Translations under genes and position numbers: made by a program | NCBI GenBank assembly: GCA_023150945.1 | Contig: JAKLJX010000022.1 | Coordinates: 28,158-92,157, forward strand | Source: a bacterium | Lineage (GTDB): Bacteria; Zhuqueibacterota; Zhuqueibacteria; Zhuqueibacterales; Zhuqueibacteraceae | DNA length: 64,000 bases | Direction: 5' to 3' | The notes under the pieces: generated by a model | Told to the model about the DNA's origin: nothing | What the model saw: only the letters and a program-made list of their open reading frames with translations | The model's database searches: none | Shown: in pieces, positions 16,300 through 31,884 of the stretch | Numbering within the stretch: the stretch's first letter is position 1 | How the letters are laid out: every line of letters begins with the position of its first letter

Positions 16300-17331
16300 T
16301 CAAGTGCCGTTTTGGTTGGAGGAAGGGGAGGAGGGTGCGTCGCCAGCAATCGGCAGGCGCGGAAGCGCATGGCCTCCATCCGATGCGGAGGTTGGTGCTG
16401 GGCGCTGTCTTTGGGGCTCGTGCTCATGACAGGGAAAGCCGCTGATCTCCGCGGCGATCTTGAGATAGGCATTCTTGATGGCAAGTTCGTAGTTTCTTTT
16501 CTCCCGCCAGGTGCCCCGCTTCCACCAGTGCGCCGCTGCCACGCCGTTGAGGTGCCACCATCCCATTTGATTCACATGATCAGCCGGCACTGGGAAATCA
16601 CGCTGAACGATCAATTTGGTGGTGCCGTCATCTGCAACCAGGCGATCCTGCCAGCGCTGCGAGGTGACTGCGACCAGGCCATCATTGTCACCTTCTCTGG
16701 CATAGGTAATTTGCCAGGTCTTTTGAAACGGAAAGAAAGTCAACTCGCGCCGCTGCCAGCCGGCATAGGTTTGATAGATGACGGAATTGCTCGCTTCGGC
16801 ATTGCGCGCGCTGGCGTTGAACTCCCGGCAGGCGGCGGTGGTGAGGCTCTGAAAGCCCTCGAGATTGATGACCTTGCGCAGCGACTCGATGATTCTGGTG
16901 AGGCCGAATTCCAGGAACCAATCGGCCACACTGGCGCCCAAGTGCGGCGTGCCCAACGTGGTGAGGGAAGCGACCTGATCGGCCATGCCGTGCTGCACGA
17001 TCATGTGGCGGGCATCCAGGCCGCCCATGCTGTGGCCGATGAGATGAACTTTGGGCTGGCCGGTCTCCGCCAGGATTTTGCGAACCTGCGCTGCCAGCTC
17101 ACGCGCCCGGGTGTCGACGTCAGCGGCAAAGCTCACGCTGGTGGCGAAAACCTCATAGCCGTGCCGGCGCAAGTGGCTGGCAATGCCTTTGAAATAGTGC
17201 AGGCGATCCGCCACCCGGCTGTCTTCATGCAGATTCAGCTTGCGGATGATGAAGTCGATGAGATAATCCGGACGGGTGATGCCGTGTGCCAGAATGATCG
17301 GATAACCGTGCTTCCCATTCATGAGGCCCAA
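16300..17331 (-). CDS. Alpha/beta-hydrolase lipase/esterase with no signal peptide
   Basis: PIILAHG, GHSMGG nucleophile elbow, TLGTPHLG, DNDGLV (Asp), ADHVNQMG (His). Confidence 0.85.
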   Translation of the reverse strand: MGLMNGKHGYPIILAHGITRPDYLIDFIIRKLNLHEDSRVADRLHYFKGIASHLRRHGYEVFATSVSFAADVDTRARELAAQVRKILAETGQPKVHLIGHSMGGLDARHMIVQHGMADQVASLTTLGTPHLGASVADWFLEFGLTRIIESLRKVINLEGFQSLTTAACREFNASARNAEASNSVIYQTYAGWQRRELTFFPFQKTWQITYAREGDNDGLVAVTSQRWQDRLVADDGTTKLIVQRDFPVPADHVNQMGWWHLNGVAAAHWWKRGTWREKRNYELAIKNAYLKIAAEISGFPCHEHEPQRQRPAPTSASDGGHALPRLPIAGDAPSSPSSNQNGT

Positions 17332-17543: not shown

Positions 17544-19283
17544 TCATTTGCCAAAGAAAAAGAAGATCACACTCGAAGCAAACAGGCCGATCCACAAGAA
17601 GGGCGGAGCGCCCTGCACGAAAGCCACCACGCCGCCGATGATGCACGAGCCTGCCATCAAGCCGCTGCGCAAGCCGCGCAACGGGTTTTCCTGGCGCGGC
17701 GCGTTGAAGATTTGTTGCAGATAGCGCGAAGTTTCCGCGATGAACTCCGGTGCGCGCACCAGCGCATCGACCAATTCCGGCATGCCGCTGAAAAACTGCT
17801 GCAGCAGCCGCACGGGGTCATAGTGTTCGTTGTAAATGGCGTGCACGTGGCGCCGCGACAACGCCGGCACGTCGAGATGGGGATCCAACTGCAAGCCCAC
17901 GCCCTCAAACGTCACCAGCGCCTTCACCATTAATGTCATTTCCACCGGGAAGAAAATGCGAAACCTGCCACCGAGGCGCAGCGATTCGAGGATGAGCTGC
18001 GCCAGGCTCAGGCTGCCATCGGAGGCATGCAGCAAGTAGCGCCGGGACAAGTCAGTCACCGCGCGCCGGAAGCCGGTGGGGTCACCGCCTTCGCCCGGGC
18101 GCGCCATGGCCATCAAGTAGCGCGCCGAGCCGGTGATGTCGCCGTTAACCAGAGCGTGGAAGTAGTACAGCATGCTGAGCTTCATCTTCTCGTCGAATCG
18201 CCCGACCATGCCGAGGTCGATGAATCCGACTTTGGGGCCGGGCAGCACGATGAGATTGCCGGGATGCAAATCAGCGTGAAAAAAGCCGTCGGCATAAAGC
18301 ATCTTGATGATGGCGCCGGCGCCCAGATCGATGATGCGTTGCAGATCTTCCTGGCTCAGTTCCTGCACCTTGGGATCGCCGGGCTTCAGGCCATCGAGAT
18401 AATCCATGCACAGCACGTCGCGCGAGCTTAGCCAGTGATGAATTCTGGGGAAGACCACGTCGGGGTGGCGGGCAAAATTGGCGGCAAAAATTTCGGCATG
18501 ATCGGCCTCATATTTCAGGTCGATTTCTCTTTCGGTGTAGGCGCAAAACTCGTTGATGATCATTTGGGGCTGGTAGCGCGGCAGCAGCCATTCCAGGAGA
18601 TGGGCAAACAATTGCAGCAGCTTGATGTCAGCCAGGATGGCCTCGCGAATGCCGGGCTTGATCACTTTGATGACGACGGTCTCGCCGGTGATGGTCTGTG
18701 CCAGATGGGTTTGCGCAATGGAAGCGGAGCCGATGGCTTGCGGTTCGAGGTGCGTGAACAGCTCGGTCAGCGGGCGGCCCAGGCTGGCGGCAATGATTTC
18801 CGCGATGGCTTCGAACTTGACCTCGGGCACGCGGTCCAGCAGTTGTTTGAGCTCATCGGTGATTTCACGCGGCAGGAGGTCTTCGCGGATGGCCATGATC
18901 TGGCCGAGCTTGATGTAGGTCGGCCCCAGCAGCTCCAACCGCCGGCGCAATTGCACGGGCCAGGGCTGGTCGCGCAGTTCTTTGAGAACGAAGGGCCGCA
19001 CCAGTAGCGCCAGAAAACGGGAGCCGGCGGAATGCAGATACTTGCGTTTGTCGGCAGGGAGGCGCTGCACCGCGGCGAGATGGCTGCCCATGAGCAGGCC
19101 GAACAAATGGCGCAGGAGCAGGAAAAAACGGCGCCCGACCCGCGGCCGGAAAACCGGCGGTGCTGAGGCCGTGGCGTGGAGGTGATACTTGTGGTTGGTG
19201 GCAGGCTGAAACACCTGCACGCGTGCCGCCAGCGGGGGGGAGGCCTCCGCCGCCGGCGCGGGCATGGCTGTGGCTCTTTCCAT
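17544..19283 (-). CDS. ABC1/AarF/UbiB-family atypical kinase with C-terminal transmembrane hairpin
   Basis: GPTYIKLGQ, GSASIAQTH, IKVIKP, FFHADLHPGN, IDLGMVG. Confidence 0.9.
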   Translation of the reverse strand: MERATAMPAPAAEASPPLAARVQVFQPATNHKYHLHATASAPPVFRPRVGRRFFLLLRHLFGLLMGSHLAAVQRLPADKRKYLHSAGSRFLALLVRPFVLKELRDQPWPVQLRRRLELLGPTYIKLGQIMAIREDLLPREITDELKQLLDRVPEVKFEAIAEIIAASLGRPLTELFTHLEPQAIGSASIAQTHLAQTITGETVVIKVIKPGIREAILADIKLLQLFAHLLEWLLPRYQPQMIINEFCAYTEREIDLKYEADHAEIFAANFARHPDVVFPRIHHWLSSRDVLCMDYLDGLKPGDPKVQELSQEDLQRIIDLGAGAIIKMLYADGFFHADLHPGNLIVLPGPKVGFIDLGMVGRFDEKMKLSMLYYFHALVNGDITGSARYLMAMARPGEGGDPTGFRRAVTDLSRRYLLHASDGSLSLAQLILESLRLGGRFRIFFPVEMTLMVKALVTFEGVGLQLDPHLDVPALSRRHVHAIYNEHYDPVRLLQQFFSGMPELVDALVRAPEFIAETSRYLQQIFNAPRQENPLRGLRSGLMAGSCIIGGVVAFVQGAPPFLWIGLFASSVIFFFFGK

Positions 19284-19496: not shown

Positions 19497-19982
19497 TCAC
19501 ATGGCTTTGGCCTTGGGACCGGTTTTTGTAGCCTCCTCCAATCTTTGCACCAGCGCCGCCACGCTTTCCGTGAGCTTGTCGACTTTCTCGGAGAGGATCT
19601 TCACCTCGTCACGGGCAGCTTCGGCCGGCCGCTCCGCCGGGCCGATGACTTTCTTCCGCACGAATTCGGCGGCGTCATCCAGCCGGGCAAAAACGTCGTG
19701 GGTGAATTGCTCCACCTTTTCGCTGACATAGGTGGGCGCCGGCTCGCCGTTGGTCTTCATGGTTTTGCCGTTTTTCTCCACCATCTCCCGGCCGCGCTCG
19801 ACGAACCGGTTGAACAGCTTGGTGCCTTCCTTGTCGATCGTGGAGAATACGCCCAAGCCCGCCAGCCAAATCTCACGCGAGGTCTTGGAGATGCCCTCTT
19901 GCAGCACCTGCAAGGTGCCCTTCGCGTCTTCCACCATTTGTTCGACGGATTTGTGCTCCATCGTCTCTTTTTCGTGAGTCAT
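19497..19982 (-). CDS. Phasin-family (PhaF/PhaI-like) granule-associated protein
   Basis: SREIWLAGLGVF...EGTKLFNRFVERG and C-terminal coiled coil RDEVKILSEKVDKL; SD AAGGAG before ATG at 19982. Confidence 0.82.
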   Translation of the reverse strand: MTHEKETMEHKSVEQMVEDAKGTLQVLQEGISKTSREIWLAGLGVFSTIDKEGTKLFNRFVERGREMVEKNGKTMKTNGEPAPTYVSEKVEQFTHDVFARLDDAAEFVRKKVIGPAERPAEAARDEVKILSEKVDKLTESVAALVQRLEEATKTGPKAKAM

Positions 19983-20369: not shown

Positions 20370-20876
20370 TTAGGAATTCTTCCCTTCTCTTTTCTCATCC
20401 TTGCTGCTGGACGCAGGCGGCGGAGGGGGCGCATCGCCAACGCTCTCTGCGCCGGCCTCACCAGTCGCAGGCTGACTCGCCAGCGCGCGAATAATCCTCT
20501 CCAAAGATTCAACCCGACGCTGCAATTGCCGGAGATCCTCGGCGTGGTCGCTGCTGAACAGCTTGTTGATGGCGCCCGGCATCAGAGCGCCAATGCCGTG
20601 GCGCACCTGTTCCAGCCCGCCGTCGATGAGGTTGCTGCCGACCCGGATCAAATCATGCAACAGATCCGTGGTGAGCGGATTGCGGCCTCTTTTCCCTTCT
20701 TCGAGAATCACCTGGGTGAGGGTTTGGGTGGTGATGTCCTCGCCGCTGCTGTTTTCCACCACCTGAACATCGACACCCTTGCGAATCAAGCTGGCGATTT
20801 CTTCGAGAGAAATATACCGGCGCTCCTCGGTGTCATAGAGCTTGCGGTTTTCGTAGCGTTTGATGAGGCGATTCAT
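20370..20876 (-). CDS. phaR: PhaR-like DNA-binding regulator (PHB accumulation regulator N-terminal domain)
   Basis: IKRYENRKLYDTEERRYISLEEIASLIRKG...GEDITTQTLTQVILEE matches the PhaR N-terminal signature. Confidence 0.82.
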   Translation of the reverse strand: MNRLIKRYENRKLYDTEERRYISLEEIASLIRKGVDVQVVENSSGEDITTQTLTQVILEEGKRGRNPLTTDLLHDLIRVGSNLIDGGLEQVRHGIGALMPGAINKLFSSDHAEDLRQLQRRVESLERIIRALASQPATGEAGAESVGDAPPPPPASSSKDEKREGKNS

Positions 20877-20889
20877 ATTCTGGCTCGAA

Positions 20890-20996
20890 TATAACACACC
20901 GCGTTATAAAAGTCAAGGCGAATTTGACGCAATGCGTAACAAATAGAACGAACCACAGCGTACTGAACCACAGAAAATCTATTAATAAAAATAGAT
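20890..20996. promoter_or_regulatory. AT-rich divergent promoter region with inverted and direct repeats (candidate operators)
   Basis: TATAAC-N7-GTTATA (20890-20908), ACGCA-A-TGCGT (20927-20937), GAACCACAG x2 (20950, 20965), ATCTATT-N6-AATAGAT (20977-20996). Confidence 0.5.
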
Positions 20997-21338: not shown

Positions 21339-22481
21339 ATGGAACGATATGCAATCGATCTGGCTGAGACGGAATTGAAGGCACAGGTCAGCGAAAACCG
21401 GAAGCACTGTGATCGCCACCTCGACCATGACTTCGCCGTCAAGCTGGTCAAATACGTGCTGGCTCCACTCAACGATTGCTATTTCCGCTCGGAGTTCATC
21501 GGATTCGACCCGCTGCCGGAACGCAACCATCCCGACCGGCCGCTGATTCTCGCGAGCAACCATGCCGGCATGGCTTTTCCGTGGGACGGCATCATTTTCA
21601 TCTCCCAGCTTTTTCGCCGCAACAATTATGATTTCTCCAAAGCGGTGCGCGCGCTCACCTCGCCGATGCTTTCACAAACCACGCTGATGAATCCCTTTCT
21701 GGTGAGCAATTTCTGGAAGAAAGTCGGCAGTGTCGATGCCACCACGCTCAACGTCGAGACCATGATGCAGCAGACCGAGATGAACTTGTTGATCTATCCG
21801 GAAGGCGTGCCCGGCATCGGCAAGGGCTTCGACAAACGCTACCAGTTGCAGCGTTTTGCCACTTCCTTCATTCGCGTCAGTCTGAAGTACCGCACCGACA
21901 TCATTCCGTTTGCCACGGTCAACAACGAGTTCATCAATCCCTATGCTTACCAGTCCGCGACCGTCAACAAAATCGCGAACCTGCTCGGCATCCCCTTTCT
22001 GCCGCTGGGACTGATGACGGCTCTGATTCCCTTTCAGCCCTGGCTGTTCTACTTTGCCTTTCCCGCCAAACTCACTTATGTGATGGGCAGGCGCATCAAA
22101 CCCTACGAGATGATCGACAAACCGCTGAATCGCATCACCGAGCAGGACATCAACCAACTCACCATGCTGGTGCGGCGCCAGATGCAGGCGGAATTGCAGG
22201 AAGCGGTCCGCCGCTACGGCCGCCAGCCGTACGCGCTCAAGGAGTTTTTCACCACCTGCCGCCAGCAGGTGCGGCGCTTTCCCTATTTTCTGCCGTGCTT
22301 TTGGCCTTCGCTGTTTGCGGAGGTGGAACGGCGCAGCCGGCAGCGCGACGACCTGCCGTGGGACATGAGCCTGTGGGCCGGACTCAAGGCGTTTCTGCGG
22401 CGGCCGCTGAGCTTGGCGTTTTTTGTGCCGGTGCTCGGCTGGATTCCGATTCTCTGGCGCGGTTACACCAACAAATCCTGA
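21339..22481 (+). CDS. Lysophospholipid/MGAT-like acyltransferase (PlsC superfamily, MGAT/DGAT2-like subgroup)
   Basis: LILASNHAGMAFPWDG, LIYPEGVPGIGKGFDKRYQLQRF, DIIPFATV; SD AAGGAGG before ATG 21339. Confidence 0.8.
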   Translation: MERYAIDLAETELKAQVSENRKHCDRHLDHDFAVKLVKYVLAPLNDCYFRSEFIGFDPLPERNHPDRPLILASNHAGMAFPWDGIIFISQLFRRNNYDFSKAVRALTSPMLSQTTLMNPFLVSNFWKKVGSVDATTLNVETMMQQTEMNLLIYPEGVPGIGKGFDKRYQLQRFATSFIRVSLKYRTDIIPFATVNNEFINPYAYQSATVNKIANLLGIPFLPLGLMTALIPFQPWLFYFAFPAKLTYVMGRRIKPYEMIDKPLNRITEQDINQLTMLVRRQMQAELQEAVRRYGRQPYALKEFFTTCRQQVRRFPYFLPCFWPSLFAEVERRSRQRDDLPWDMSLWAGLKAFLRRPLSLAFFVPVLGWIPILWRGYTNKS

Positions 22482-22485
22482 CACC

Positions 22486-23118
22486 ATGCATCACGCTGCC
22501 CTGCACCTCGCGCTCAAGCTGGACTACAATGAAATCCCGGTGCCCGAGCGCATCGTCATCCAGTTGGAGCCGGGCGAAATCCGCCTGCTCAAACGCATTC
22601 GCTATCATCAGCACAGCACCGATCCGCTGCGGGCGGTGAAACTCAGCTTGCGTTACGGCGCCGGCCATCATTTGCTGATCGCGATGGAGCTTGCCGGCCG
22701 GATCGTGCTCATTCCCGGCGGAGAATTCCGCTTTGGCGGCACGCGGTTGGTGCTGGTGTGCAAGCCGACGATCGCGCACAACCGCTTGACGTTGCACAAG
22801 GCCACCATCAAGGAAATCGACATGCCGTTGATTCCGCGCTTCTTCGAGGCTTTCGTGCGCGAGCTGGTCAACAAGAGCTTCCTGCCCAACCTCGGCCACT
22901 CACTCAACTTTGATCTCGAGAGCATCCTCGACGAAGTGCGGAAGAAGGTCAACGATTTGGAGCCGATCAACCTCAGCATCGGCAAACAGCATTTTCTCTT
23001 TCGCATCTCCCCCAACATCGAAGACGGCGAGCACGAGCTGACCCTCTCGCATGACGCCATCGTTCTGAAGCTGCACCTGCAATTCACGCCGGTGTTCGAG
23101 ATTTACAGCCGGCGCTGA
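22486..23118 (+). CDS. Hypothetical beta-rich cytoplasmic protein (possibly DUF4403/TULIP-like)
   Basis: Starts 4 nt after the acyltransferase stop; alternating long beta-strands with one long helix; no recognisable catalytic motif. Confidence 0.6.
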   Translation: MHHAALHLALKLDYNEIPVPERIVIQLEPGEIRLLKRIRYHQHSTDPLRAVKLSLRYGAGHHLLIAMELAGRIVLIPGGEFRFGGTRLVLVCKPTIAHNRLTLHKATIKEIDMPLIPRFFEAFVRELVNKSFLPNLGHSLNFDLESILDEVRKKVNDLEPINLSIGKQHFLFRISPNIEDGEHELTLSHDAIVLKLHLQFTPVFEIYSRR

Positions 23119-23979: not shown

Positions 23980-24610
23980 GAGATTTCCTCCTCACCGTGG
24001 GTTTTGAGAGACCTCGGATCTTGCATCATTCCGCCTGGGTCGAATGGTTCACTTCGCCGGCCAAAGGCCCCGCGGATTTCACTGCGCTGAAGCCACTAAA
24101 AAAACTCAATAATCATACCATCCCATGACGCAGTGCGTGAACTTGACGGACGGCGCAGCCGAGTGAACAAAGTTCAGGAAATACAGCCAGCGGTGAGCGC
24201 TACCGCGTCTGATTTCGGGGCCGGCCGGTTCTGACCCGGTAGCGCGAACCTGCGCTGATTTCCCAACATTGCGAAGCGTTTTCGAAAGAGTAAGAATTTT
24301 CGCGGTTTCGCATGAAATCCAAAATCCGGCGAAAACCGGCCTCCAGGTGGTAACTGAAACACTCTCAACCAGTTGAATCAGCGCGCCGGCAGCCGCAGCC
24401 AGCGGCACTTTTGCCGGAGCCGGTGGAACAGTTATTGAACGTCATTCAGCGGAATGGCCCGCCTGATTAGCACGATCAGCCCGCCTGAATTCGGTTGCAT
24501 AAGTATTCCTCGGTTGCCTGTCGAGCCGCTGGCTCGCCAGGCGACACCGGCTGAGTCTCCTATCCTAATCAACTGTTCTTCATATAAAACTCTGATGAGA
24601 AGGAGGACTT

Positions 24611-25885
24611 ATGCGAAAAGGGCTGCTGCTATTATTGTTGCCCCTCCTGGCCGCACATTCTCTGCAGGCGAGCGGCTTCAGTATCTATGAATTTGGCGGT
24701 CGTGCCTCGGCCATGGGCGGAGCCGCGGTGGCGTGGGCTTGGGACGGCTCCACGATATTCTACAATCCCGCCGGCCTGGCGTATCTCGATGGCACGCGGA
24801 TATATGGCGGGACCACACTGATCTTTCCCAACAGCCGCTTTGTCGGCGCTGCGCCCGTGTTCAGCAGCGCCATGTATGAAACCCGCGACACGTTTTTCTA
24901 TCCCATCAACTTCTACTTTTCCCATCGCTTCACTCGGAAGTTTGCCGCCGGCCTCGGCGTCACCAATCCGTTTGGTTTGGGAGTGGAATGGTATGATGAC
25001 TTCTCCGGGCGCGGGTATTCCAAGAACGCGCAATTGAAATCGTTCTACATCTCGCCGGTGGTGGCCTATCAAATAACCCCGAATTTCAGCATCGGCGGCG
25101 GCGCAGACCTGGTGCTCGCCAGCGTGAAGTTGGAAAAGAACGTGTTTCTCTTCGACAGTCCGGGCTCGCCGGGCTATGAAGTGGGCGACGTGACGCTGGA
25201 GGGCAACTCCAAGCTGGCGCTGGGATTCAGCGCCAGTGCCATGTTTCGCACCGCGCGGCTGGGTTGGGGCATTCTCTATCGCCACTCGATCAAGAATGAA
25301 TTCAAAGAGGGCGAAGCGGACTTCACGATTTTTGACAATCTCACCGTGCCCAATGCCGGCGCGCTGGCGCGCACCCTGCTGCAGGATCAAAAAGCCAACA
25401 CGGCCATCGAATTTCCCAATCTCATCGCCACCGGCATTCACTACAAATTCACCGATCAGCTTGCGCTCGAGGCCGATTACATCTGGTTCAATTGGTCGGT
25501 GTTCAATGAAATCGCGCTGGACTTTGCCAATGACCGGCTGGATCAAACCATGCTGGAGGAATATGACGATTCCTGGCAGGGCCGGCTCGGACTGCACTAT
25601 CAGTTGAACGATGCGCTCGCGTTGCGCGCCGGTTATATCTACGACAAGACGCCGCAGCCGATTCAAGCGGTCAGCCCGCTGCTGCCAGATGACACGCGCC
25701 ACAACTTCAGCCTGGGCGCGGGCTACACGTTCGGCAAGTATCAAATCGATGCCGGTTACATGCTGGTGCTGCTGGGCAAGCGCACCACTCTCGAAAATGG
25801 CGTGGGCAGGAACTATCACGGTTTCGACGGCACGTATAATTCCCGCGCCGATTTGCTGTTCGCCAGCTTTGGCTACACCTTCTAG
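24611..25885 (+). CDS. fadL: FadL/OmpP1/TodX outer-membrane long-chain fatty acid/hydrophobic compound channel
   Basis: Signal peptide then ASGFSIYEFGGRASAMGGA, FYNPAGLA, NPFGLGVEW, LRAGYIYDKTP, LPDDTRH; C-terminal YTF. Confidence 0.88.
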   Translation: MRKGLLLLLLPLLAAHSLQASGFSIYEFGGRASAMGGAAVAWAWDGSTIFYNPAGLAYLDGTRIYGGTTLIFPNSRFVGAAPVFSSAMYETRDTFFYPINFYFSHRFTRKFAAGLGVTNPFGLGVEWYDDFSGRGYSKNAQLKSFYISPVVAYQITPNFSIGGGADLVLASVKLEKNVFLFDSPGSPGYEVGDVTLEGNSKLALGFSASAMFRTARLGWGILYRHSIKNEFKEGEADFTIFDNLTVPNAGALARTLLQDQKANTAIEFPNLIATGIHYKFTDQLALEADYIWFNWSVFNEIALDFANDRLDQTMLEEYDDSWQGRLGLHYQLNDALALRAGYIYDKTPQPIQAVSPLLPDDTRHNFSLGAGYTFGKYQIDAGYMLVLLGKRTTLENGVGRNYHGFDGTYNSRADLLFASFGYTF

Positions 25886-25954
25886 CGGCGCGGAGCACCA
25901 GCCCGTGATGAATTGGAATCGTGACAATCATGCGTTGTGACCGTGGAGGTCGAT

Positions 25955-27391
25955 ATGCGAAAGTTGACCCATGTGTTGTGCCTTCTCAGTTTGGTTTGGT
26001 GGCTGGGCTGCGGCGTCAAGACACCCGAGCAGCCGGAGCTGAATATCACCGCCAATCAACTCGTCCTCAGCAAAATGGTGGCGCTCGGCAACAGCCACAC
26101 CGCCGGGTTTCAATCCGGCGGTTTGCGTGATGATTTCCAGCAGCACAGCTATCCGTTTTTGATTGCGCAACAAATCGGCAAGGCCGGTGACTTCGAGCTG
26201 CCGCTCATTGCCGCGCCCGGCATCGGCAGCACGCCGGGCAAGCAGCCGCTCAAGCTGGAGAATGGCAAGATCGTGACCCCGGATTTGCAGGTGTCGCCGA
26301 CTTCGCTGTTGTTGAGAGCTTTGCTGGCGCGGCCTTATGACAATCTCGGCGTGCCGGGCGCGACGTTACGCGACATGCTCAACGCCACCGGCGCCGCCAC
26401 TTCCGCGACCGGCACGAACTCCTTTTTCGATCTCGTGCTGCGCAATCCCAACCTCGGCAACACCACGCCGCTGCAACAAATCGCGCTGCTCAATCCCACG
26501 CTGGTGTTGCTGTGGATCGGCGACAGCGACGTGCTGGGCGCGGCGTTGAGCGGTGGCAATCCGGCACTGATTACGCCGCTCTCCGATTTTCAAGCCCGCT
26601 ACACGACGCTGCTGACCGAGTTGCGCCAAAAGACGCACGCCGCCCTCGTCATGGCGAACGTGCCCAACGCCACGGACCTGCCCTACCTCAACACCATGGA
26701 CTTTATCTTCCGGCCGATTCCTGCCCTGGGAATCACCGCGCCCGTGCCGGTGGTGTTCGACGCCAAATTCCAACCGGTGGACTTCGACCCGACGGCGAAC
26801 ACGCTCTACGTGCCGTTGATGACGGAAGAAAAGGAAGTGGCACACTTGACTCTGCCGGCGCTCAGCGCGTATCAAACCGGCCTTGGCATTCCTGACGGCG
26901 CCACGTTGCTGCAACTGGGTCTGCCGGTGGCGCAGGCACAGGCGTTGGAGCAAGGCATGCGCGCTGCCGGCTTGAACCCGACCGGCCAGCCCTTCCCGGG
27001 CACGATGTCGATCACCGCCGCGGAGAAGCTTGCCATCCAGCAGGCGGTGGCGGGATTCAACAGCACGCTGCAGACGCTCGCTGGCCAGTTTCAAGCGGCC
27101 ATCGTCGATTGCAACAGCTTGATGGCCACACTCAATGCCACCGGCCTCGAGGGATATTCCGGCCGCTTTGTGCTGCTGGATCCGCAGAACACCGCCTTCA
27201 GTCTGGACGGTGTGCATCCCAACAACGGCGGCTACGCGCTGATCGCCAACGCCTTCATCGACAAGATCAACGCCACCTTTCAACTCGCCATTCCCAAGCT
27301 GAATCCTGCGGAGTACAAAGGGCAGTACCTGGGCGCGGCAGTGACCGGTGCCGCAGCCGCAGCGGTCGCGCAAGTTCAGGCGCTCTACTGA
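25955..27391 (+). CDS. SGNH/GDSL lipolytic lipoprotein
   Basis: Lipobox WLGC; block I ALGNSHTAG, block II NLGVPGA, block III WIGDSD, block V SLDGVHPN. Confidence 0.82.
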   Translation: MRKLTHVLCLLSLVWWLGCGVKTPEQPELNITANQLVLSKMVALGNSHTAGFQSGGLRDDFQQHSYPFLIAQQIGKAGDFELPLIAAPGIGSTPGKQPLKLENGKIVTPDLQVSPTSLLLRALLARPYDNLGVPGATLRDMLNATGAATSATGTNSFFDLVLRNPNLGNTTPLQQIALLNPTLVLLWIGDSDVLGAALSGGNPALITPLSDFQARYTTLLTELRQKTHAALVMANVPNATDLPYLNTMDFIFRPIPALGITAPVPVVFDAKFQPVDFDPTANTLYVPLMTEEKEVAHLTLPALSAYQTGLGIPDGATLLQLGLPVAQAQALEQGMRAAGLNPTGQPFPGTMSITAAEKLAIQQAVAGFNSTLQTLAGQFQAAIVDCNSLMATLNATGLEGYSGRFVLLDPQNTAFSLDGVHPNNGGYALIANAFIDKINATFQLAIPKLNPAEYKGQYLGAAVTGAAAAAVAQVQALY

Positions 27392-27576
27392 GGCGTGCTC
27401 CCCTCTCCGCAAATCTGATTGTCTCAGCCAGCATCTTGCCACCCGCGGGAATCGCTTCTTTTGCGCGGCGCCGGCCGGGTGGCAGGCTGCGGAGAGTCCC
27501 ATACCGCGCCCGTGCGCGGCGGAAGCACAGCCTGAGTTTGAATGAGTGCCGAGGTGTTTCTGTGAAGGAGGAGGAG

Positions 27577-29457
27577 ATGGAGATCAAAGACTATCAAAAC
27601 ATTCATGCGATGGTGCAAGAAACCATTGCGCGGCGGCCCGGGCAACCCGCCTATCGCTGGTTTGGCGAAGGAGGGAACCTCGAAGCGGTGACCTGGTCGC
27701 AATTCTATGATCATGTCAAGCAGGTCGGCCGGAGTTTGATCGCGCTGGGCATCAATCCGGGCGACAAGATCGCGATCCTGAGTTACACCTGCTATCGCTG
27801 GGTGGTGGCGGACGTTGCCACGGCCAGCATCGGCGCCTGCACGGTGGGCATCTATCATTCCAATTTGGCGCGCGACTGCAAATACATCATCAATCATTCC
27901 GACGCCGTTTTGCTGTTTGCGGAAGATGAAGTGCAACTCAAGAAAGCGCTGGAAATCCGGCCGGGAATTCCCAATATTCGCCGCGTCATTTTGTTCAAAG
28001 GCGCGGCCACGGACGGCTGGGCGATGACGTTCGAGCAGTTTCTGGAGTTGGGGCGGGAGGTGCCGGAGGCGGAATTCGAGCGGCGCACGCGGTTGCCCGT
28101 GCCCGGCGATCCTGCTGCCATCGTTTACACTTCGGGAACCACCGGCCTGCCGAAGGGCGCCGTGCTGACGCACGACAATCTCACTTTCACGCCGCAATCG
28201 GTTTGGCAATGTGTTGACGTGTGGGAGGGCGACGGCCAGTTTCTGTTTCTGCCGCTGGCGCACGTGTTCGCGCGCCAATGCGTGAGTTTTGCCCTGCTCG
28301 CCGGCACCACCACGACATTCACGCGCAGCATGGAAACCATCGTGGAAGACATCAAGATCGCCAAGCCGCAATGGTTTGCGAGCGTGCCGCGCGTCTATGA
28401 AAAAGTCTATGCCAAAGTGTTGAGCAATGCCGAGGCCAAGGGCGGACTGGCGTTGAAAATTTTCCGCTGGGCCTGCGGCGTGGGCGACCGCGTGAGTGAT
28501 CTCAAACTGGCGAAGCAACCGATTCCTGCGCTGCTGCACTGGCAGTATGCGCTGGCGACCAAGCTGGTGTTCCACAAGATCCACGCGGCGCTGGGCGGCC
28601 ACTTGCGCTGGTGTATCAGCGGCGCCGCGCCCATGAGTCCGTCGGTCGCCAAATTTTTCCACGCCGCCGGCATTCTGATTCTCGAGGGCATTGGCATGAC
28701 GGAGAACACCTCTTTCACCAATGTCAACCGCCACGACAACTATCGTTTCGGCTGGGTGGGCCAGCCGGGGCCGGGCATCGAACAGAAAGCTGCACCCGAC
28801 GGCGAGATCCTGTTTCGCGGCCGCAATGTGATGAAGGAGTACTACAAAATGCCGGCGGAAACCGCCGAAACCATCACGCCCGAAGGCTGGTTGCGCACCG
28901 GCGATCTCGGCGAGATCGATGCCGAGAATTTCCTGCGCATCACCGGCCGCAAAAAGGAGCTGATCATCACCGCCGGCGGCAAGAACATTGCCCCATCGCC
29001 GATCGAGAATCTGCTCATGACGTCGAAGTACATCAGCCAGGCCTGTGTTTTGGGCGATCAACGGCAATTCCTGTGCGCGTTGGTGGTGTTGGATCCGGAA
29101 AACATCAAAGCCTATGCGCAGGAGCACGGCATTGCTTTCACCATCATCGATGAGCTGCGCGGCCAGGATCACATCAAACGCTTGATTGAAGCGGAAGTGG
29201 CGGCGAAAAATCGCGAGCTGGCGTCGTTCGAGACCATCAAGAAGATCCGCATCGTGCCGGAGTTCACCATCGAGAATGGCCTGCTGACGCCCACGCTCAA
29301 GATCAAGAAGAACCTGGTGGCGGAGAAATACCGGGCAGAAATCGAAGCGATGTACGCGGAAAACAACCTGCGCGAGGACGCGCGTTTGAACGGCTTCCCC
29401 TTTGGCCGTGAGGCTGCTACCGGCGCACAGCCGTCAGGCAAGAGCGTGCCGTTTTGA
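27577..29457 (+). CDS. fadD: Long-chain fatty acid-CoA ligase (AMP-dependent synthetase)
   Basis: YTSGTTGLPKG, FLPLAHVF, EGIGMTEN, GWLRTGDLG, RKKELIITAGGKNIAP, TPTLKIKK; SD GGAGGAG before ATG 27577. Confidence 0.9.
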   Translation: MEIKDYQNIHAMVQETIARRPGQPAYRWFGEGGNLEAVTWSQFYDHVKQVGRSLIALGINPGDKIAILSYTCYRWVVADVATASIGACTVGIYHSNLARDCKYIINHSDAVLLFAEDEVQLKKALEIRPGIPNIRRVILFKGAATDGWAMTFEQFLELGREVPEAEFERRTRLPVPGDPAAIVYTSGTTGLPKGAVLTHDNLTFTPQSVWQCVDVWEGDGQFLFLPLAHVFARQCVSFALLAGTTTTFTRSMETIVEDIKIAKPQWFASVPRVYEKVYAKVLSNAEAKGGLALKIFRWACGVGDRVSDLKLAKQPIPALLHWQYALATKLVFHKIHAALGGHLRWCISGAAPMSPSVAKFFHAAGILILEGIGMTENTSFTNVNRHDNYRFGWVGQPGPGIEQKAAPDGEILFRGRNVMKEYYKMPAETAETITPEGWLRTGDLGEIDAENFLRITGRKKELIITAGGKNIAPSPIENLLMTSKYISQACVLGDQRQFLCALVVLDPENIKAYAQEHGIAFTIIDELRGQDHIKRLIEAEVAAKNRELASFETIKKIRIVPEFTIENGLLTPTLKIKKNLVAEKYRAEIEAMYAENNLREDARLNGFPFGREAATGAQPSGKSVPF

Positions 29458-31145
29458 GCCGTGCGGCTCCGGACGCGGCCAATCGTACTTGCTCAACACT
29501 CAACGTGATGCCATCGGACATGCGACCGCTTCCGTCTCGTGATTATGACTACCTCGTCATCGGCTCCGGATTTGGCGGCGCCGCCGCCGCGCTGCGCCTT
29601 TCCGAAAAAGGCTACCGTGTTCTGGTGTTGGAAAAGGGCAAATGGTTGAGGGCGGAAGACTTTCCCAAGCGCAACTGGAATTTGAAGAAGTGGCTCTGGT
29701 TGCCGGCGCTGCGTTGTTTTGGATTGTTCAAAATCACCGTTTTCCGCCACGTTGCGATTCTCTCCGGCGTGGGCGTGGGCGGCGGGTCACTGGTTTACGC
29801 CAACACGTTGGCGATTCCCAAAGCCAGGTTCTTTGCCGCCGAGACCTGGGCGCATCTGGCGGACTGGGAGAAGGAGCTGCACGAGTTTTATCCCGTGGCT
29901 TTGCGTATGCTGGGCGCGGCGCCCAATCCCCGCCTGGAGGTGGGTGACCGCGCCCTGCAGCAGTTGGCCGTTGCGTTGGGCAAAGCAGAGCATTTCAATG
30001 TGACCGATGTGGCGGTCTATTTCGGCGAACCGGGAGTGACGGCGCCGGATCCTTATTTCAACGGCAAAGGCCCGGAACGCACCGGCTGCTGCTTCTGCGG
30101 CGGCTGCATGTTGGGCTGCCGCTACAATGCCAAGAACACGCTGGACAAGAACTATTTGCATTTTGCCCAGCAAAACGGCGTGAAGATTCAAGCAGAGGCG
30201 GAAGTCTACGATGTGATCCCGTTGGATGGCGGACCGGGTGCGTCCGGATATCGCGTCAAGTGGCGGTCGTCCACCAAATATTTCAAAAGGCGGGGCGAAT
30301 TCACCTGCCGCGGTGTCGTGTTTGCCGGCGGCGTCACCGGCACGGTCAAGCTGCTGCTGAAGCTGCGGCAGACTTCGCTGCCGCAGCTCTCCGACCAAGT
30401 CGGCGCGGGCATTCGCACCAACTCGGAGAGCCTGATCGGGGTGACGACGTTCGACCGCGAGACCGTTTTCTCCGAGGGCATTGCGATCGGCTCGATTCTG
30501 CATACCGACGAACACAGCCACCTCGAGCCGGTGCGCTATTCTGCCGGTTCGGGCTTTTGGCGCCTGCTTATGTCGCCGCTGGCTTACGGCAGCAATGCCT
30601 TCAGTCGCGCCGCCCGGATCATTGGCGATTTGCTGCGGCACCCGCTCGACAACTTGCGGCTTTTTCTGGTGGATGATTGGTCGAAGCGTACGCAGATCCT
30701 GCTATTCATGCGCACGTTGGAGAGCACGCTGCGGTTTTCGCGCGGCCGCCTGGGGATGAAGTCCACGCTGGCGCAGGGCGTGGCGCCCACGCCCTTCATG
30801 CCCGAAGCCAAAGAGCTGGCGGAGCGCTTCAGCAAGATTGTGAATGGCAAACCCACCGCACTTTCCACCGAGACGCTGCTCGGAATTCCCACCACGGCTC
30901 ACATTCTCGGCGGCGCAGTGATGGGCCAGGATCGCAGCGCAGGCGTGATCGACAAGGATAATCGCGTGTTTGGCTATGCGAACATGTACGTCTGCGACGG
31001 CAGCATGATCTCCGCCAATCCCGGAGTCAATCCCTCACTCACGATATTGGCGCTCACCGAGCGGGCGATGAGCAAGATTCCGCCGTCCCTGCCCGAGCCC
31101 GAGGTCAGCAGAGAGGTGGCAAATGATATTGCACTGGAAACGTGA
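29454..31145 (+). CDS. GMC-family FAD oxidoreductase, cholesterol oxidase ChoD-like
   Basis: YDYLVIGSGFGG, GVGVGGGSLVYAN, CCFCGGCMLGCRYNAKNTLDKNYL, TAHILGGA, NPGVNPSLTI. Real start may be 29508 or 29520. Confidence 0.82.
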   Translation: MSRAAPDAANRTCSTLNVMPSDMRPLPSRDYDYLVIGSGFGGAAAALRLSEKGYRVLVLEKGKWLRAEDFPKRNWNLKKWLWLPALRCFGLFKITVFRHVAILSGVGVGGGSLVYANTLAIPKARFFAAETWAHLADWEKELHEFYPVALRMLGAAPNPRLEVGDRALQQLAVALGKAEHFNVTDVAVYFGEPGVTAPDPYFNGKGPERTGCCFCGGCMLGCRYNAKNTLDKNYLHFAQQNGVKIQAEAEVYDVIPLDGGPGASGYRVKWRSSTKYFKRRGEFTCRGVVFAGGVTGTVKLLLKLRQTSLPQLSDQVGAGIRTNSESLIGVTTFDRETVFSEGIAIGSILHTDEHSHLEPVRYSAGSGFWRLLMSPLAYGSNAFSRAARIIGDLLRHPLDNLRLFLVDDWSKRTQILLFMRTLESTLRFSRGRLGMKSTLAQGVAPTPFMPEAKELAERFSKIVNGKPTALSTETLLGIPTTAHILGGAVMGQDRSAGVIDKDNRVFGYANMYVCDGSMISANPGVNPSLTILALTERAMSKIPPSLPEPEVSREVANDIALET

Positions 31146-31884
31146 GCCGCTTTTCCAGCTTTTTCCTTACGGGGCGCCCGAGCTGCAGGGGGTCCACAAC
31201 GTGTACCTGTCGTGGGCAGCGAGCGCCGCCATCGTGTTTCATCTTCTGGTGCTGGGATTCTGGTTGAGTGGGCGCCTGCTCAGTGAGGAGCCGGAGGTGC
31301 GCTTGGTGCACTTGCGGGTGATTCGGGATGTGGCCGAGCTCGGTCCGCCGCCTGCCATTGCCAGCGCGGCGCAAGCTCTGGCGATCAAAAGCCCGGTCGC
31401 ACGGCCGTCCGTTGGTGTGCCGGTTCCCGTTCCTGATGCGCTGATCACGCCGGAGGCGACGCTGGCAACTCAGGAGGAGATGTCCCAAATGCAGGCGCCT
31501 TTGACAGCCGGCGAAACCGGCGGGGATTCCATGGTGGTGGCGCCGGGCGCAATCCTTTACGGCGAGTCGGCGGAAGAGCCCGGCATGGATGAGTTCATTC
31601 CGTTCGAGATGCCGCCCATGGTGGTCAAGCGAGTGGAGCCGGTCTATCCTGAGCTGGCGCGCAAAGCCGGCCTGCAGAGCAAGATTGTGGTGAAGGCACT
31701 GGTGGACAAACGCGGGCAGGTCAAAAAAGTCGTACCGATTCAGGGCCACGAGATTTTCCACGAGGCGGCAATCCAGGCGATCATGCAATGGGTGTTCAAA
31801 CCTGCACTGCAGCAAAACGAGCCGGTGGCGGTGTGGGTGGCCGTCCCGCTGAACTTCGTGCTGAAAGAATCTCAGAAAAAGTAG
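31123..31884 (+). CDS. Energy transducer TonB-family protein
   Basis: N-terminal TM containing His (IVFHLLVLG), Pro-rich linker, C-terminal PVYPELARKAG...VDKRGQV...QWVFKPA...VAVPLNFVL. Confidence 0.8.
   Translation: MILHWKREPLFQLFPYGAPELQGVHNVYLSWAASAAIVFHLLVLGFWLSGRLLSEEPEVRLVHLRVIRDVAELGPPPAIASAAQALAIKSPVARPSVGVPVPVPDALITPEATLATQEEMSQMQAPLTAGETGGDSMVVAPGAILYGESAEEPGMDEFIPFEMPPMVVKRVEPVYPELARKAGLQSKIVVKALVDKRGQVKKVVPIQGHEIFHEAAIQAIMQWVFKPALQQNEPVAVWVAVPLNFVLKESQKK

What the first reader, a model, noticed from the sequence alone, without database searches (positions are those of the whole stretch)
21339..22481. MGAT/DGAT2/TMEM68-like acyltransferase as a possible non-WS/DGAT storage-lipid synthase
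Seen: NHAGMAFPWDG and YPEGVPGIGKGFDKRYQLQRF, with a long C-terminal amphipathic tail; the gene is divergent from phaR. Established: this motif pattern belongs to the MGAT-like branch of the PlsC superfamily, and eukaryotic relatives (MGAT, DGAT2, TMEM68) make DAG/TAG. Inference: it makes the lipid that the phasin coats rather than membrane phospholipid.
Basis: partly seen in the sequence, partly recalled or inferred. Interest (0 to 1): 0.6.

Follow-up and report, generated by a model that had tools for sequence, protein, structure and literature searches.

The report
DGAT2-like acyltransferase in phasin lipid-droplet cluster
This gene encodes an uncharacterised acyltransferase, distantly like the enzymes that make storage fat in eukaryotes and cyanobacteria, and it travels with a droplet-coat protein, its regulator and a lipid kinase in bacteria that cannot make bioplastic, so it probably builds a so far undescribed kind of bacterial fat droplet.

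Summary

It has the GPAT/PlsC fold, but it is not a canonical PlsC. The genome has its own PlsC and OlsA-like genes, and profile comparison with them is near noise. Its nearest relatives carry double PF01553 and PF03982 (DGAT2) matches, as TMEM68 does.

The main new result concerns PHA synthase. The 99%-complete genome has PhaR and one phasin but no PHA synthase. None was found in 121 genomes of its phylum, 81 Calditrichota or 10 Bacteroidota genomes that carry the cluster.

The acyltransferase co-occurs with PhaR in 10 of 10 genomes in its own phylum and in 13 of 14 Calditrichota genomes. It lies next to a phasin-like gene and an ABC1 kinase in three phyla. Lipid uptake, activation and lipase genes are nearby.

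Best reading (confidence 0.55): it is the ester synthase of a neutral-lipid droplet module resembling cyanoglobules or plastoglobules. The acceptor lipid is unknown, and nothing has been tested biochemically.

Another reader of this scan noted the Bacteroidota version of the cluster on other DNA.

The parts
21339..22481 (+). Acyltransferase gene, 380 aa, of a divergent LPLAT/PlsC-superfamily clade with DGAT2/MGAT-like features
   Evidence: PF01553 scores 24.7 bits against a cut-off of 23. The fold matches GPAT1, PlsC and GPAT at Z 11-12.5. The family alignment is A1.
21558..21590 (+). Motif I variant NHAGMAFPWDG (His75 ... Asp83, H-x7-D instead of H-x4-D)
   Evidence: Invariant N74 H75 G77 M78 A79 F80 P81 W82 D83. 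Outgroups share it as NH[AS]G..P[WY]DG.
21795..21857 (+). Motif III/IV block YPEGVPGIGKGFDKRYQLQRF
   Evidence: Invariant Y153 P154 E155 G156 G159 I160 K162 G163 F164 Y168 Q171. In the outgroups the block continues as RGGFVKLA, which is DGAT2 motif 4 (PMC10171310).
21957..22067 (+). Internal Pro-rich hydrophobic segment (residues 207-243), a candidate membrane or droplet hairpin
   Evidence: Kyte-Doolittle value up to 1.92. pLDDT is low here.
22371..22469 (+). Conserved C-terminal hydrophobic segment (residues 345-377; NPxxxAFFxPxLGWIPxLxRGY)
20370..20897 (-). PhaR-like regulator, divergent from the acyltransferase
   Evidence: PF07879 E 2.4e-26. TIGR01848 scores 87.6 bits, below its cut-off of 109. 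It co-occurs with the acyltransferase.
19497..19982 (-). Phasin (PF05597), the only one in the genome. The start at 19982 is inferred from homologues; the open frame runs to 20099.
17544..19283 (-). ABC1/UbiB-family atypical kinase, the only true ABC1 member in the genome
   Evidence: PF03109 E 1e-59. It is the only strong hit in G000. Within the order it occurs in the same genomes as the acyltransferase.
16300..17331 (-). Lipase-like alpha/beta hydrolase (PGAP1/DUF676/LCAT-like)
   Evidence: Conserved beside the ABC1 kinase in KSB1 and Calditrichota loci.
20925..20939 (.). Operator-like palindrome TGACGCAATGCGTAA in the phaR-acyltransferase spacer, next to a predicted phaR promoter
24126..24140 (.). 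Second copy of the palindrome (TGACGCAGTGCGTGA), between the TPR gene and the fadL operon
   Evidence: The extended motif occurs only at these two places in 7.37 Mb. Copies sit at the same position in L001 and L002.
22486..23118 (+). Conserved 210-aa protein of unknown function, starting 5 nt after the acyltransferase stop; probably co-transcribed
   Evidence: No Pfam or NCBIfam hit. The AF2 model was unusable.
24611..25885 (+). FadL-type outer-membrane transporter for hydrophobic compounds
   Evidence: PF03349 E 9e-64.
25937..27391 (+). GDSL lipase/acylhydrolase
27574..29457 (+). Long-chain fatty acid-CoA ligase (FadD11-like), the likely source of the acyl donor
   Evidence: PF00501. NF038343 E 4e-108, below its cut-off. 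Start read.
29454..31145 (+). GMC oxidoreductase, cholesterol-oxidase-like
   Evidence: NF058674 scores 585 bits over its full length, below the cut-off of 850. The same family lies next to the acyltransferase in 9 or more loci.

Best explanation
The gene encodes a monotopic, membrane- or droplet-associated O-acyltransferase. It belongs to a distinct, uncharacterised clade of the LPLAT (PlsC/GPAT-fold) superfamily that lies on the DGAT2/MGAT/TMEM68-like side rather than the PlsC side. I propose that it esterifies a hydrophobic alcohol with a fatty acyl group to make a neutral ester. Candidate acceptors are diacylglycerol, or an exogenous or isoprenoid alcohol such as a sterol, prenol or quinol. 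The acyl donor is most likely acyl-CoA from the FadD-like ligase in the same cluster. The ester would phase-separate into droplets coated by the neighbouring phasin-like protein. The PhaR-like repressor would bind the TGACGCA-N-TGCGT palindromes and control the cluster, by analogy with PHA systems, where PhaR is titrated off the DNA by nascent granules. The ABC1 kinase, lipases, FadL and the cholesterol-oxidase-like enzyme would serve regulation, mobilisation and supply. Shown here: the fold, the motifs, the clade placement, the absence of PHA synthase, the co-occurrence and the conserved gene order. Inferred: the catalytic roles of His75, Asp83 and Glu155, the acyl donor, the acceptor, droplet formation and PhaR control.
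For: 1. Fold and family. PF01553 is above its cut-off. VIA-align gives Z 12.5 to GPAT1, 11.7 to 7zkq_T, 11.5 to PlsC and 11.2 to plant GPAT, while unrelated chains score 5 or less.
2. Not the housekeeping enzyme. The genome has a PlsC above the TIGR00530 cut-off, a second PlsC-like gene and an OlsA-like gene. The target has no TIGR00530 hit. hhalign to those paralogues gives probability 9%, against E 1e-35 to 1e-54 to its own wider clade.
3. DGAT2/MGAT-like side. The nearest outgroup families carry PF01553 plus PF03982, which is the TMEM68 signature (PMC5417663). They also contain RGGFVKLA and VPVAIVGAEE, which match DGAT2 motifs 4 and 5. The whole clade has YFR, as Slr2103 does (PMC10171310). 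In the Atlas, 23 of the 30 nearest clusters carry both families. Once PF01553 clusters are removed, DGAT2/MGAT1 clusters come first.
4. No PHA to coat. PhaC_N, class I and class III PHA synthase models find nothing in the 99.3%-complete genome. They also find nothing real in 121 genomes of the phylum. PhaC_N finds nothing in 81 Calditrichota or in 15 cluster-bearing genomes.
5. Co-occurrence. In the phylum sample the acyltransferase is in 10 genomes, and all 10 have PhaR. Within the order, the ABC1 kinase is in exactly those 10 of 19 genomes. In Calditrichota, 13 of 14 acyltransferase genomes have PhaR, against 6 of 67 genomes without it, and the two genes are sometimes about 0.9 Mb apart.
6. 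Gene order. Acyltransferase, phasin-like gene and ABC1 kinase are adjacent in KSB1, Calditrichota and at least four Bacteroidota families. Recurrent neighbours are FadL, GDSL lipase, an HSL-type lipase, a GMC oxidoreductase and HMG-CoA reductase.
7. Shared operator-like palindrome. It occurs only twice in the genome, both times in this cluster, and is conserved in orthologous spacers.
8. Precedent. On cyanoglobules, DGAT2-like Slr2103, ABC1 kinases and a structural coat protein sit together (PMC12223511). Slr2103 makes TAG, phytyl esters and acyl-plastoquinol (PMC12048435).
Against: There is no biochemical or cell-biological evidence for droplets or neutral lipids in any of these organisms. 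The target and all 15 aligned homologues fail to match PF03982 even at E 10, so the link to DGAT2 runs through intermediate families, motifs and a language-model score of 0.81-0.82, which is only a lead. Motif I is H-x7-D, not the canonical H-x4-D, so the catalytic dyad is an assumption. Many family members (Raineya, Microscilla, Flexithrix, Thermonema and others) have unrelated neighbours. Six Calditrichota genomes and G013 have PhaR without this acyltransferase. The WS/DGAT search found nothing, but its control matched nowhere, so the absence of that enzyme is not established. The genome has no sterol or hopanoid cyclase and no HMG-CoA reductase, so an isoprenoid acceptor would have to be imported or MEP-derived.
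Confidence: 0.55

Rival explanations
1. It is a membrane-lipid acyltransferase (lysophospholipid, lyso-aminolipid or similar). Together with the phasin-like protein, the ABC1 kinase and DUF445 it forms a membrane-lipid homeostasis or stress module, and no storage droplet is involved.
For: The only direct family matches are PF01553 and a faint GlsA hit. Motif III keeps the PEG of AGPATs. The structural matches include PlsC and a complex I assembly-intermediate chain that I take from memory, unchecked, to be tafazzin. Bacteroidota neighbours include GDPD and DUF445 membrane proteins. Bacteria with neutral-lipid droplets are rare.
Against: PlsC and OlsA functions are already encoded elsewhere in the genome. 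The profile match to them is near noise. This reading does not explain why a PhaR-like repressor and a phasin track this gene in phyla where no PHA synthase was found. It also does not explain the linkage to FadL, an acyl-CoA ligase and lipases.
Confidence: 0.2
2. The end product is as in the best explanation, a neutral lipid, but the mechanism differs. The enzyme is an acyl-CoA-independent transacylase that takes acyl groups from phospholipids, as proposed for TMEM68/DIESL and as tafazzin does.
For: Motif I is non-canonical, H-x7-D. TMEM68/DIESL is reported to make TAG at the expense of membrane phospholipid (PMC10482677; bioRxiv 10.1101/2024.04.14.589399). 7zkq_T, which I take from memory to be tafazzin, is among the top structural matches at Z 11.7. 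GDPD and lipases are frequent neighbours.
Against: A long-chain acyl-CoA ligase sits in the same cluster under the same operator-like motif. The structural scores do not separate transacylases from acyl-CoA enzymes: Z 11.2-12.5 counts as tied.
Confidence: 0.12
3. The cluster is an ordinary PHA locus. An unrecognised PHA synthase exists, and the acyltransferase has an accessory role, for example supplying or modifying hydroxyacyl units.
For: PhaR (PF07879) and phasin (PF05597) are classic PHA-granule proteins.
Against: No PhaC_N, class I or class III synthase was found in the genome or in 121 genomes of the phylum, and no PhaC_N in a further 96 genomes, although the control genome (Caulobacter) was detected each time. 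In G013 the PhaR-phasin pair sits beside a PKS-type lipid synthase instead.
Confidence: 0.03

Closest known systems
Slr2103 / MFAT of Synechocystis (DGAT2-like multifunctional acyltransferase on cyanoglobules)
   Same: It is a bacterial, soluble or monotopic DGAT2-like acyltransferase with degenerate DGAT2 motifs (YFR, an altered HPHG). It works on a lipid droplet that also carries ABC1 kinases and a structural coat protein (PMC10171310, PMC12223511, PMC12048435).
   Different: The target does not match PF03982 at all. It keeps a PEG motif III and has a conserved 120-residue C-terminal extension. It is found in non-photosynthetic KSB1, Calditrichota and Bacteroidota. Its partners are a phasin-like protein and PhaR rather than fibrillin. 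I could not make a direct alignment with Slr2103.
TMEM68 / DIESL (animal MGAT/DGAT-like member of the glycerophospholipid acyltransferase family)
   Same: It is a PF01553-family protein on the border with PF03982. It has a non-standard motif I spacing (H129...D135) and TAG-synthesising activity (PMC5417663, PMC9916437, PMC10482677).
   Different: TMEM68 has N-terminal transmembrane helices and resides in the ER. The target has no N-terminal TM segment; its hydrophobic segments are internal and C-terminal. The double Pfam signature appears in the target's relatives, not in the target.
Plant PES1/PES2 (ELT family phytyl ester synthases of plastoglobules)
   Same: An acyltransferase domain related to Slr2103 makes prenyl esters and TAG on droplets that carry ABC1 kinases (PMC12048435, PMC12223511). 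A hydrolase accompanies the acyltransferase.
   Different: In PES the hydrolase is fused to the acyltransferase. Here the lipase-like genes are separate neighbours. Not compared by sequence.
Bacterial WS/DGAT (AtfA type, PF03007)
   Same: It plays the same proposed physiological role: the final esterification step for bacterial neutral-lipid inclusions.
   Different: It has an unrelated fold and family. No PF03007 match was found in the genome, but the control was uninformative.
PlsC (1-acyl-sn-glycerol-3-phosphate acyltransferase, TIGR00530)
   Same: Same superfamily fold (Z 11.5 to T. maritima PlsC). Shares the catalytic His and motif III PEG. Database annotations of homologues use this name.
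   Different: There is no TIGR00530 hit. Motif I is H-x7-D. The target is 380 aa, against about 240 aa for PlsC. hhalign probability to the genome's own PlsC is 9%.

Membership tests
LPLAT / PlsC-GPAT superfamily (Pfam PF01553) | Match to PF01553 above the gathering score | tested here: met
   24.7 bits against a cut-off of 23. All 16 aligned members match, best E 2.7e-8.
LPLAT / PlsC-GPAT superfamily (Pfam PF01553) | GPAT/PlsC alpha-beta acyltransferase fold | tested here: met
   AF2 model with pLDDT 74 and pTM 0.78. Z 12.5 to GPAT1, 11.5 to PlsC and 11.2 to GPAT, with the next unrelated chain at 5.0.
LPLAT / PlsC-GPAT superfamily (Pfam PF01553) | Motif I H-x4-D catalytic dyad | tested here: not met
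   The sequence is NHAGMAFPWD. The residue at +5 from His75 is Phe, and the first invariant Asp is at +8. The His is conserved but the spacing is not canonical.
LPLAT / PlsC-GPAT superfamily (Pfam PF01553) | Motif III xxEGxx | tested here: met
   Invariant Y153-P154-E155-G156. Motif definition from PMC5417663.
Canonical PlsC (TIGR00530 AGP_acyltrn) | Score at or above the TIGR00530 cut-off | tested here: not met
   No TIGR00530 hit at E up to 1. The paralogue in L082 scores 106.2 against a cut-off of 102.95.
Canonical PlsC (TIGR00530 AGP_acyltrn) | Profile similarity to bona fide PlsC/OlsA | tested here: not met
   hhalign of A1 against the genome's own PlsC/OlsA gives probability 9.2% and E 0.0036. 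Against its own wider clade it gives 99.9-100%.
DGAT2/MGAT family (Pfam PF03982) | Match to PF03982 | tested here: not met
   None of the 16 members matches at E up to 10. There is no PF03982 match in the genome.
DGAT2/MGAT family (Pfam PF03982) | N-terminal YFP/YFR tripeptide | tested here: met
   Y48 is invariant, F49 is at 90% or more, and R50 follows, giving YFRS. The tripeptide is shared by nearly all outgroups. Motif from PMC10171310.
DGAT2/MGAT family (Pfam PF03982) | Motif 1 (H/E)PH(G/S) | tested here: inconclusive
   The target has SNH[AS]G. Slr2103 has HNGG (PMC10171310). The resemblance is loose.
DGAT2/MGAT family (Pfam PF03982) | Motif 4 RxGF(V/I)(K/R)xA | tested here: inconclusive
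   The target has RFATSFIRVS, a degenerate form. The nearest outgroup families have RGGFVKLA exactly.
TMEM68 / MGAT-like LPLAT subgroup (CDD cd07987) | Double PF01553 and PF03982 domain signature | tested here: inconclusive
   The target matches PF01553 only. Outgroups P0225, P0230, P0243 and P0260 carry both. In the Atlas, 23 of the 30 nearest clusters carry both.
TMEM68 / MGAT-like LPLAT subgroup (CDD cd07987) | Match to the CDD model cd07987, or a clade with named TMEM68, MGAT or Slr2103 sequences | not testable with these tools
   No CDD library was available and no named eukaryotic or Synechocystis sequences could be retrieved. The homologue search with P0230 returned only bacterial proteins annotated as PlsC.
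PHA granule system (PhaC-PhaR-PhaP) | A PHA synthase in the genome | tested here: not met
   PF07167, TIGR01836 and TIGR01838 find nothing in G000, which is 99.3% complete. The same searches detected the Caulobacter control.
PHA granule system (PhaC-PhaR-PhaP) | PhaR DNA-binding domain and a phasin | tested here: met
   PF07879 E 2.4e-26 and PF05597 E 2.4e-19. TIGR01848 and TIGR01837 are both below their cut-offs.

The most novel reading that the evidence does not exclude
Non-photosynthetic FCB-group bacteria (KSB1, Calditrichota, many Cytophagales and other Bacteroidota) possess a plastoglobule-like lipid-droplet organelle. A DGAT2-like acyltransferase of a new clade would build it, a phasin-like protein would coat it, and a dedicated ABC1 kinase would tune it. 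In KSB1 and Calditrichota, a PhaR repressor would have been re-used to sense neutral-lipid droplets instead of PHA. Given the recurrent cholesterol-oxidase-like, HSL-lipase, FadL and HMG-CoA reductase neighbours, the cargo may be steryl, prenyl or quinol esters rather than TAG.
Probability: 0.3. Interest if true: 0.8.

Novelty: new variant of a known kind. Interest (0 to 1): 0.62.

Why it matters
Bacterial neutral-lipid storage is currently explained almost entirely by WS/DGAT enzymes, and in cyanobacteria by Slr2103. Phasins and PhaR are read as markers of PHA metabolism.

If this module works as proposed, three things follow:
- A second, widespread family of bacterial storage-lipid synthases exists, in 428 GTDB species across several phyla.
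- PhaR and phasin annotations do not imply PHA.
- The trio of DGAT2-like acyltransferase, ABC1 kinase and coat protein, known from plastoglobules and cyanoglobules, is not confined to the photosynthetic lineage. This bears on the origin of lipid droplets.

It would also give the ABC1/UbiB kinases of ubiquinone-free bacteria a testable role. Cultured carriers exist (Hymenobacter mucosus, H. daecheongensis), so the idea can be tested directly.

Tried and rejected
- **PDB by sequence.** Nothing was found with the protein. With the profile, only chance p300 hits at E about 0.7 appeared.
- **Foldseek against the PDB.** It gave the right fold, but only at E 3e-3. VIA-align was needed for clear scores.
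- **Pfam at E up to 10 on 16 members.** This was meant to catch PF03982 and found none.
- **Looking for named eukaryotic relatives.** I searched through the nearest outgroups and found only bacterial proteins generically named PlsC. Placement against MGAT, DGAT2, TMEM68 and Slr2103 therefore stayed indirect.
- **Structure of the conserved 210-aa downstream protein.** The model had pLDDT 39 and was unusable, so no fold search was run.
- **WS/DGAT search.** There was no hit, but the control genomes contain no WS/DGAT either, so the negative result is weak.
- **Fatty acyl-CoA reductase search (PF07993).** Only weak generic NAD-binding hits of 51 bits or less appeared, so there is no obvious route to wax alcohols.
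- **Endogenous sterol or hopanoid acceptor.** I rejected this for this genome, which has no squalene or oxidosqualene cyclase and no HMG-CoA reductase.
- **Core palindrome.** At 2 mismatches, ACGCA-W-TGCGT is not enriched in the window. As an exact core, ACGCA-N-TGCGT is not enriched in the genome either: 6 copies against about 8.6 expected. Only the extended form and its conservation in orthologous spacers carry weight.
- **Literature.** The searches found no description of this module outside cyanobacteria.
Full report
**1. The observation**

window:21339-22481(+) is a clean 380-codon ORF. Its ATG lies 8 nt after an AAGGAGG. Homologues align from the first residues, so the longer GTG-initiated frame from 21282 is not needed.

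The gene is divergent from a PHB_acc_N (PhaR) gene at 20370-20897(-), across a 441-bp spacer.

The protein is conserved over its full length, including the roughly 120-residue C-terminal extension. More than 850 proteins match it, from 428 GTDB species. Named records are KSB1, Calditrichota, many Bacteroidota (Cyclobacteriaceae, Hymenobacter, Flexithrix, Thermonema, Raineya, Saprospiraceae) and a few Leptospiraceae.

In a 16-sequence alignment with 48-75% identity to the query, N74 H75 G77 M78 A79 F80 P81 W82 D83 and Y153 P154 E155 G156 G159 I160 K162 G163 F164 are invariant.

The 'amphipathic tail' is only partly right. Residues 263-310 score as amphipathic helices. Residues 207-243 and 345-377 are Pro/Trp/Phe-rich hydrophobic stretches that look like monotopic hairpins.

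**2. What kind of protein it is**

- **Family models.** Pfam gives only PF01553, just above its cut-off. NCBIfam gives only a faint GlsA hit, far below its cut-off, and no TIGR00530 hit.
- **Solved structures.** None is detectable by sequence.
- **Fold.** An AF2 model (pLDDT 74, pTM 0.78) aligns to human GPAT1 (Z 12.5), chain T of a complex I assembly intermediate (Z 11.7), T. maritima PlsC (Z 11.5) and plant GPAT (Z 11.2). From memory I take chain T to be tafazzin; I did not check this. PatA and LpxM follow at Z 7-8, and unrelated chains score 5 or less. The core, residues about 10-300, is therefore an LPLAT-type acyltransferase.
- **Motifs.** Motif III (PEG) is canonical. Motif I is not: the first invariant Asp is 8 residues after the His, not 5.

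**3. It is not PlsC**

The genome has four other PF01553 genes. One passes the TIGR00530 cut-off, one nearly does, and one is OlsA-like.

Profile-profile comparison of the family against these paralogues gives probability 9% and E 0.004. Comparison against three neighbouring families found by an exhaustive HMM search gives E 1e-35 to 1e-54.

**4. The DGAT2/MGAT-like side**

- **Outgroup domains.** The neighbouring families are bacterial (myxobacteria, cyanobacteria and others). Several of their members carry both PF01553 and PF03982. That double signature is the one described for TMEM68 (PMC5417663).
- **Shared motifs.** Aligned with the target, these families share YFR, NH[AS]G..P[WY]DG and PEGxxGxGK..RYxLQRF. 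They continue with RGGFVKLA and PIVPVAIVGAEE. These correspond to the YFP/YFR tripeptide and to motifs 4 (RxGF(V/I)(K/R)xA) and 5 (VPxxxFG) of DGAT2 and Slr2103 (PMC10171310). The target's own motif 4 is degenerate (RFATSFIRVS).
- **Atlas.** 23 of the 30 nearest clusters carry both Pfam families. With PF01553 clusters excluded, the top clusters are eukaryotic DGAT2, an algal DAGAT and MGAT1-like, but only at 0.81-0.82, which is a lead.
- **Against.** No member of the target family matches PF03982 even at E 10. I could not obtain named MGAT, DGAT2, TMEM68 or Slr2103 sequences for a direct alignment or tree.

The placement is therefore consistent and likely, but indirect.

**5. The neighbourhood**

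| Coordinates | Strand | Gene |
|---|---|---|
| 16300-17331 | - | lipase-like alpha/beta hydrolase |
| 17544-19283 | - | ABC1/UbiB kinase |
| 19497-19982 | - | phasin |
| 20370-20897 | - | PhaR-like regulator |
| 21339-22481 | + | acyltransferase |
| 22486-23118 | + | conserved 210-aa protein of unknown function |
| 23185-23979 | - | exported TPR protein |
| 24611-25885 | + | FadL |
| 25937-27391 | + | GDSL lipase |
| 27574-29457 | + | FadD11-like fatty acid-CoA ligase |
| 29454-31145 | + | GMC oxidoreductase |
| 31123-31884 | + | TonB_C protein |

The GMC oxidoreductase aligns end to end with the cholesterol oxidase model at 585 bits, below its cut-off of 850. The phasin is the only PF05597 gene in the genome. 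The kinase is the only true ABC1 member.

**6. No PHA synthase**

The genome is 99.3% complete. PhaC_N, class I and class III PHA synthase models find nothing in it, although the Caulobacter control is detected.

- **Own phylum.** PhaC_N is absent from all 121 sampled genomes, and the class III model gives only noise, none of it in carriers.
- **Calditrichota.** PhaC_N is absent from 81 genomes.
- **Cluster-bearing genomes.** It is absent from 5 Calditrichota or KSB1 genomes and 10 Bacteroidota genomes that carry the cluster.

Whatever the phasin coats, PHA made by a known synthase is very unlikely.

**7. Co-occurrence**

- **Own phylum (121 genomes).** The acyltransferase is in 10 genomes. 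PhaR is in exactly those 10, plus G013 and a weak hit in G020. Three genomes of the same family that lack the acyltransferase also lack PhaR.
- **Own order.** A low-scoring ABC1 subtype (200-225 bits) is present in exactly the same 10 of 19 genomes. A different, higher-scoring ABC1 type is common elsewhere in the phylum.
- **Calditrichota.** 13 of 14 acyltransferase genomes have PhaR, against 6 of 67 without. In complete chromosomes the two genes can lie about 0.9 Mb apart, so the association is not only adjacency.

Related genomes are not independent, so I give no statistic. The pattern does repeat in two phyla.

**8. Conserved gene order across phyla**

Clustering all ORFs of 80 loci gives these orders:

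- **KSB1 and Calditrichota:** lipase, ABC1 kinase, phasin and PhaR on one strand, divergent from the acyltransferase. FadL, GDSL, GMC or HMG-CoA reductase are often nearby.
- **Bacteroidota, type 1:** HMG-CoA reductase, DUF445, ABC1 kinase and a small phasin-like gene, divergent from the acyltransferase.
- **Bacteroidota, type 2:** GDSL, FadL and GMC divergent from acyltransferase, HSL-type lipase, phasin-like gene and ABC1 kinase. Hymenobacter mucosus (L071) carries the core part of this order: acyltransferase, HSL-type lipase, phasin-like gene and ABC1 kinase.

The small Bacteroidota protein matches PF05597 weakly (E 1e-4). It matches the KSB1 phasins by hhalign at probability 78% and E 2e-5.

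Many other family members have unrelated neighbours.

**9. A shared operator-like site**

A palindrome, TGACGCA-N-TGCGT(A/C)A, lies about 30 bp upstream of phaR, at 20925-20939. A second copy lies between the TPR gene and fadL, at 24126-24140.

- **Genome count.** The extended motif occurs only at these two places in the 7.37-Mb genome. The core alone is not enriched.
- **Conservation.** One to three copies are conserved in the phaR-proximal spacers of L001-L005, L008-L010, L017 and L031. In L004 one copy is 39 bp before the acyltransferase start. Copies upstream of fadL occur in L001 and L002.
- **Promoters.** Both window copies abut the only two sigma-70-like promoter matches in the 5.5 kb scanned. 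These are consensus matches only.

I infer, but have not shown, that this is the PhaR box and that the acyltransferase and the uptake operon belong to one regulon.

**10. Mechanism proposed**

FadL and the GDSL lipase bring in fatty acids, and possibly other hydrophobic alcohols. The ligase makes acyl-CoA. The acyltransferase sits in the membrane by its hydrophobic hairpins and uses His75 as the base, with Asp83 and Glu155 assisting. It esterifies a lipid alcohol.

The neutral ester accumulates and buds as a droplet coated by the phasin-like protein. PhaR leaves its operators when droplets appear. The lipases mobilise the store. The ABC1 kinase regulates, as ABC1 kinases do on plastoglobules and cyanoglobules, where they sit with DGAT2-like Slr2103 and a coat protein (PMC12223511).

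The acceptor is unknown. DAG is the default. The cholesterol-oxidase-like and HSL-type neighbours, and HMG-CoA reductase in relatives, point to sterol, prenol or quinol acceptors, and Slr2103 and PES do use such acceptors (PMC12048435). This genome has no triterpene cyclase and no HMG-CoA reductase, so such acceptors would have to be imported or MEP-derived. No clear fatty acyl-CoA reductase was found, which argues against de novo wax esters.

**11. Rivals**

- **Membrane-lipid acyltransferase in a membrane-homeostasis module (0.2).** It fits the bare family assignment. It does not explain the PhaR and phasin linkage where no PHA synthase was found.
- **Acyl-CoA-independent transacylase making the same product (0.12).**
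- **Ordinary PHA locus with a hidden synthase (0.03).**

**12. Novelty and verdict**

I found no description of this family or module. It is best called a new variant of a known kind: a DGAT2-like neutral-lipid synthase with droplet proteins, as in cyanobacteria and plastids. It differs by belonging to a new clade, by occurring in non-photosynthetic phyla, and by having PhaR and phasin as partners.

All functional statements are inference from sequence, structure prediction, gene order and phyletic pattern. Interest is 0.62.

Noticed in passing
window 20925-20939 and 24126-24140: The palindrome TGACGCA-N-TGCGT occurs only twice in the 7.37-Mb genome, both times in intergenic regions of this cluster. 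It is conserved upstream of phaR in KSB1 and Calditrichota loci. It is a candidate PhaR operator that differs from the operators I recall, unchecked, for proteobacterial PhaR.
   Followed up: partly
L090 (G013:C10:12000-29000), about 229-9725: One genome of the same class has PhaR and a phasin without this acyltransferase. There the pair sits directly after a 2530-aa PKS-like gene (KR and DH domains) and before a phosphopantetheinyl transferase. This is a second case of PhaR and phasin attached to a non-PHA lipid pathway.
   Followed up: partly
window 29454-31145: A GMC oxidoreductase aligns over its full length with NCBIfam's cholesterol oxidase model (585 bits, cut-off 850), in a genome without a sterol or hopanoid cyclase. 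The same family lies next to the acyltransferase in KSB1, Calditrichota and Cytophagales loci.
   Followed up: partly
window 22486-23118: A conserved 210-aa protein with no family match starts 5 nt after the acyltransferase stop. It is found only in the KSB1-type loci. The AF2 model was unusable (pLDDT 39).
   Followed up: partly
window 17544-19283; phylum sample: The cluster's ABC1 kinase is the only one in the genome. It belongs to a lower-scoring subtype (200-225 bits to PF03109), distinct from the 250-288-bit type that is widespread in other classes of the phylum.
   Followed up: partly
L002, L004, L005, L006, L013, L027 and Bacteroidota loci L022-L025, L033, L035, L037, L045: A class I HMG-CoA reductase with the PF25653 N-terminal domain is the second most frequent neighbour of the acyltransferase across phyla. 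The window's own genome has no HMG-CoA reductase at all.
   Followed up: partly
L035:9157-10080 and equivalents in L029, L037, L046, L048, L053, L069, L071, L076, L079: In Bacteroidota, a hormone-sensitive-lipase family esterase (GESAG subfamily) lies immediately downstream of the acyltransferase on the same strand. This suggests a pair of enzymes for synthesis and hydrolysis.
   Followed up: no
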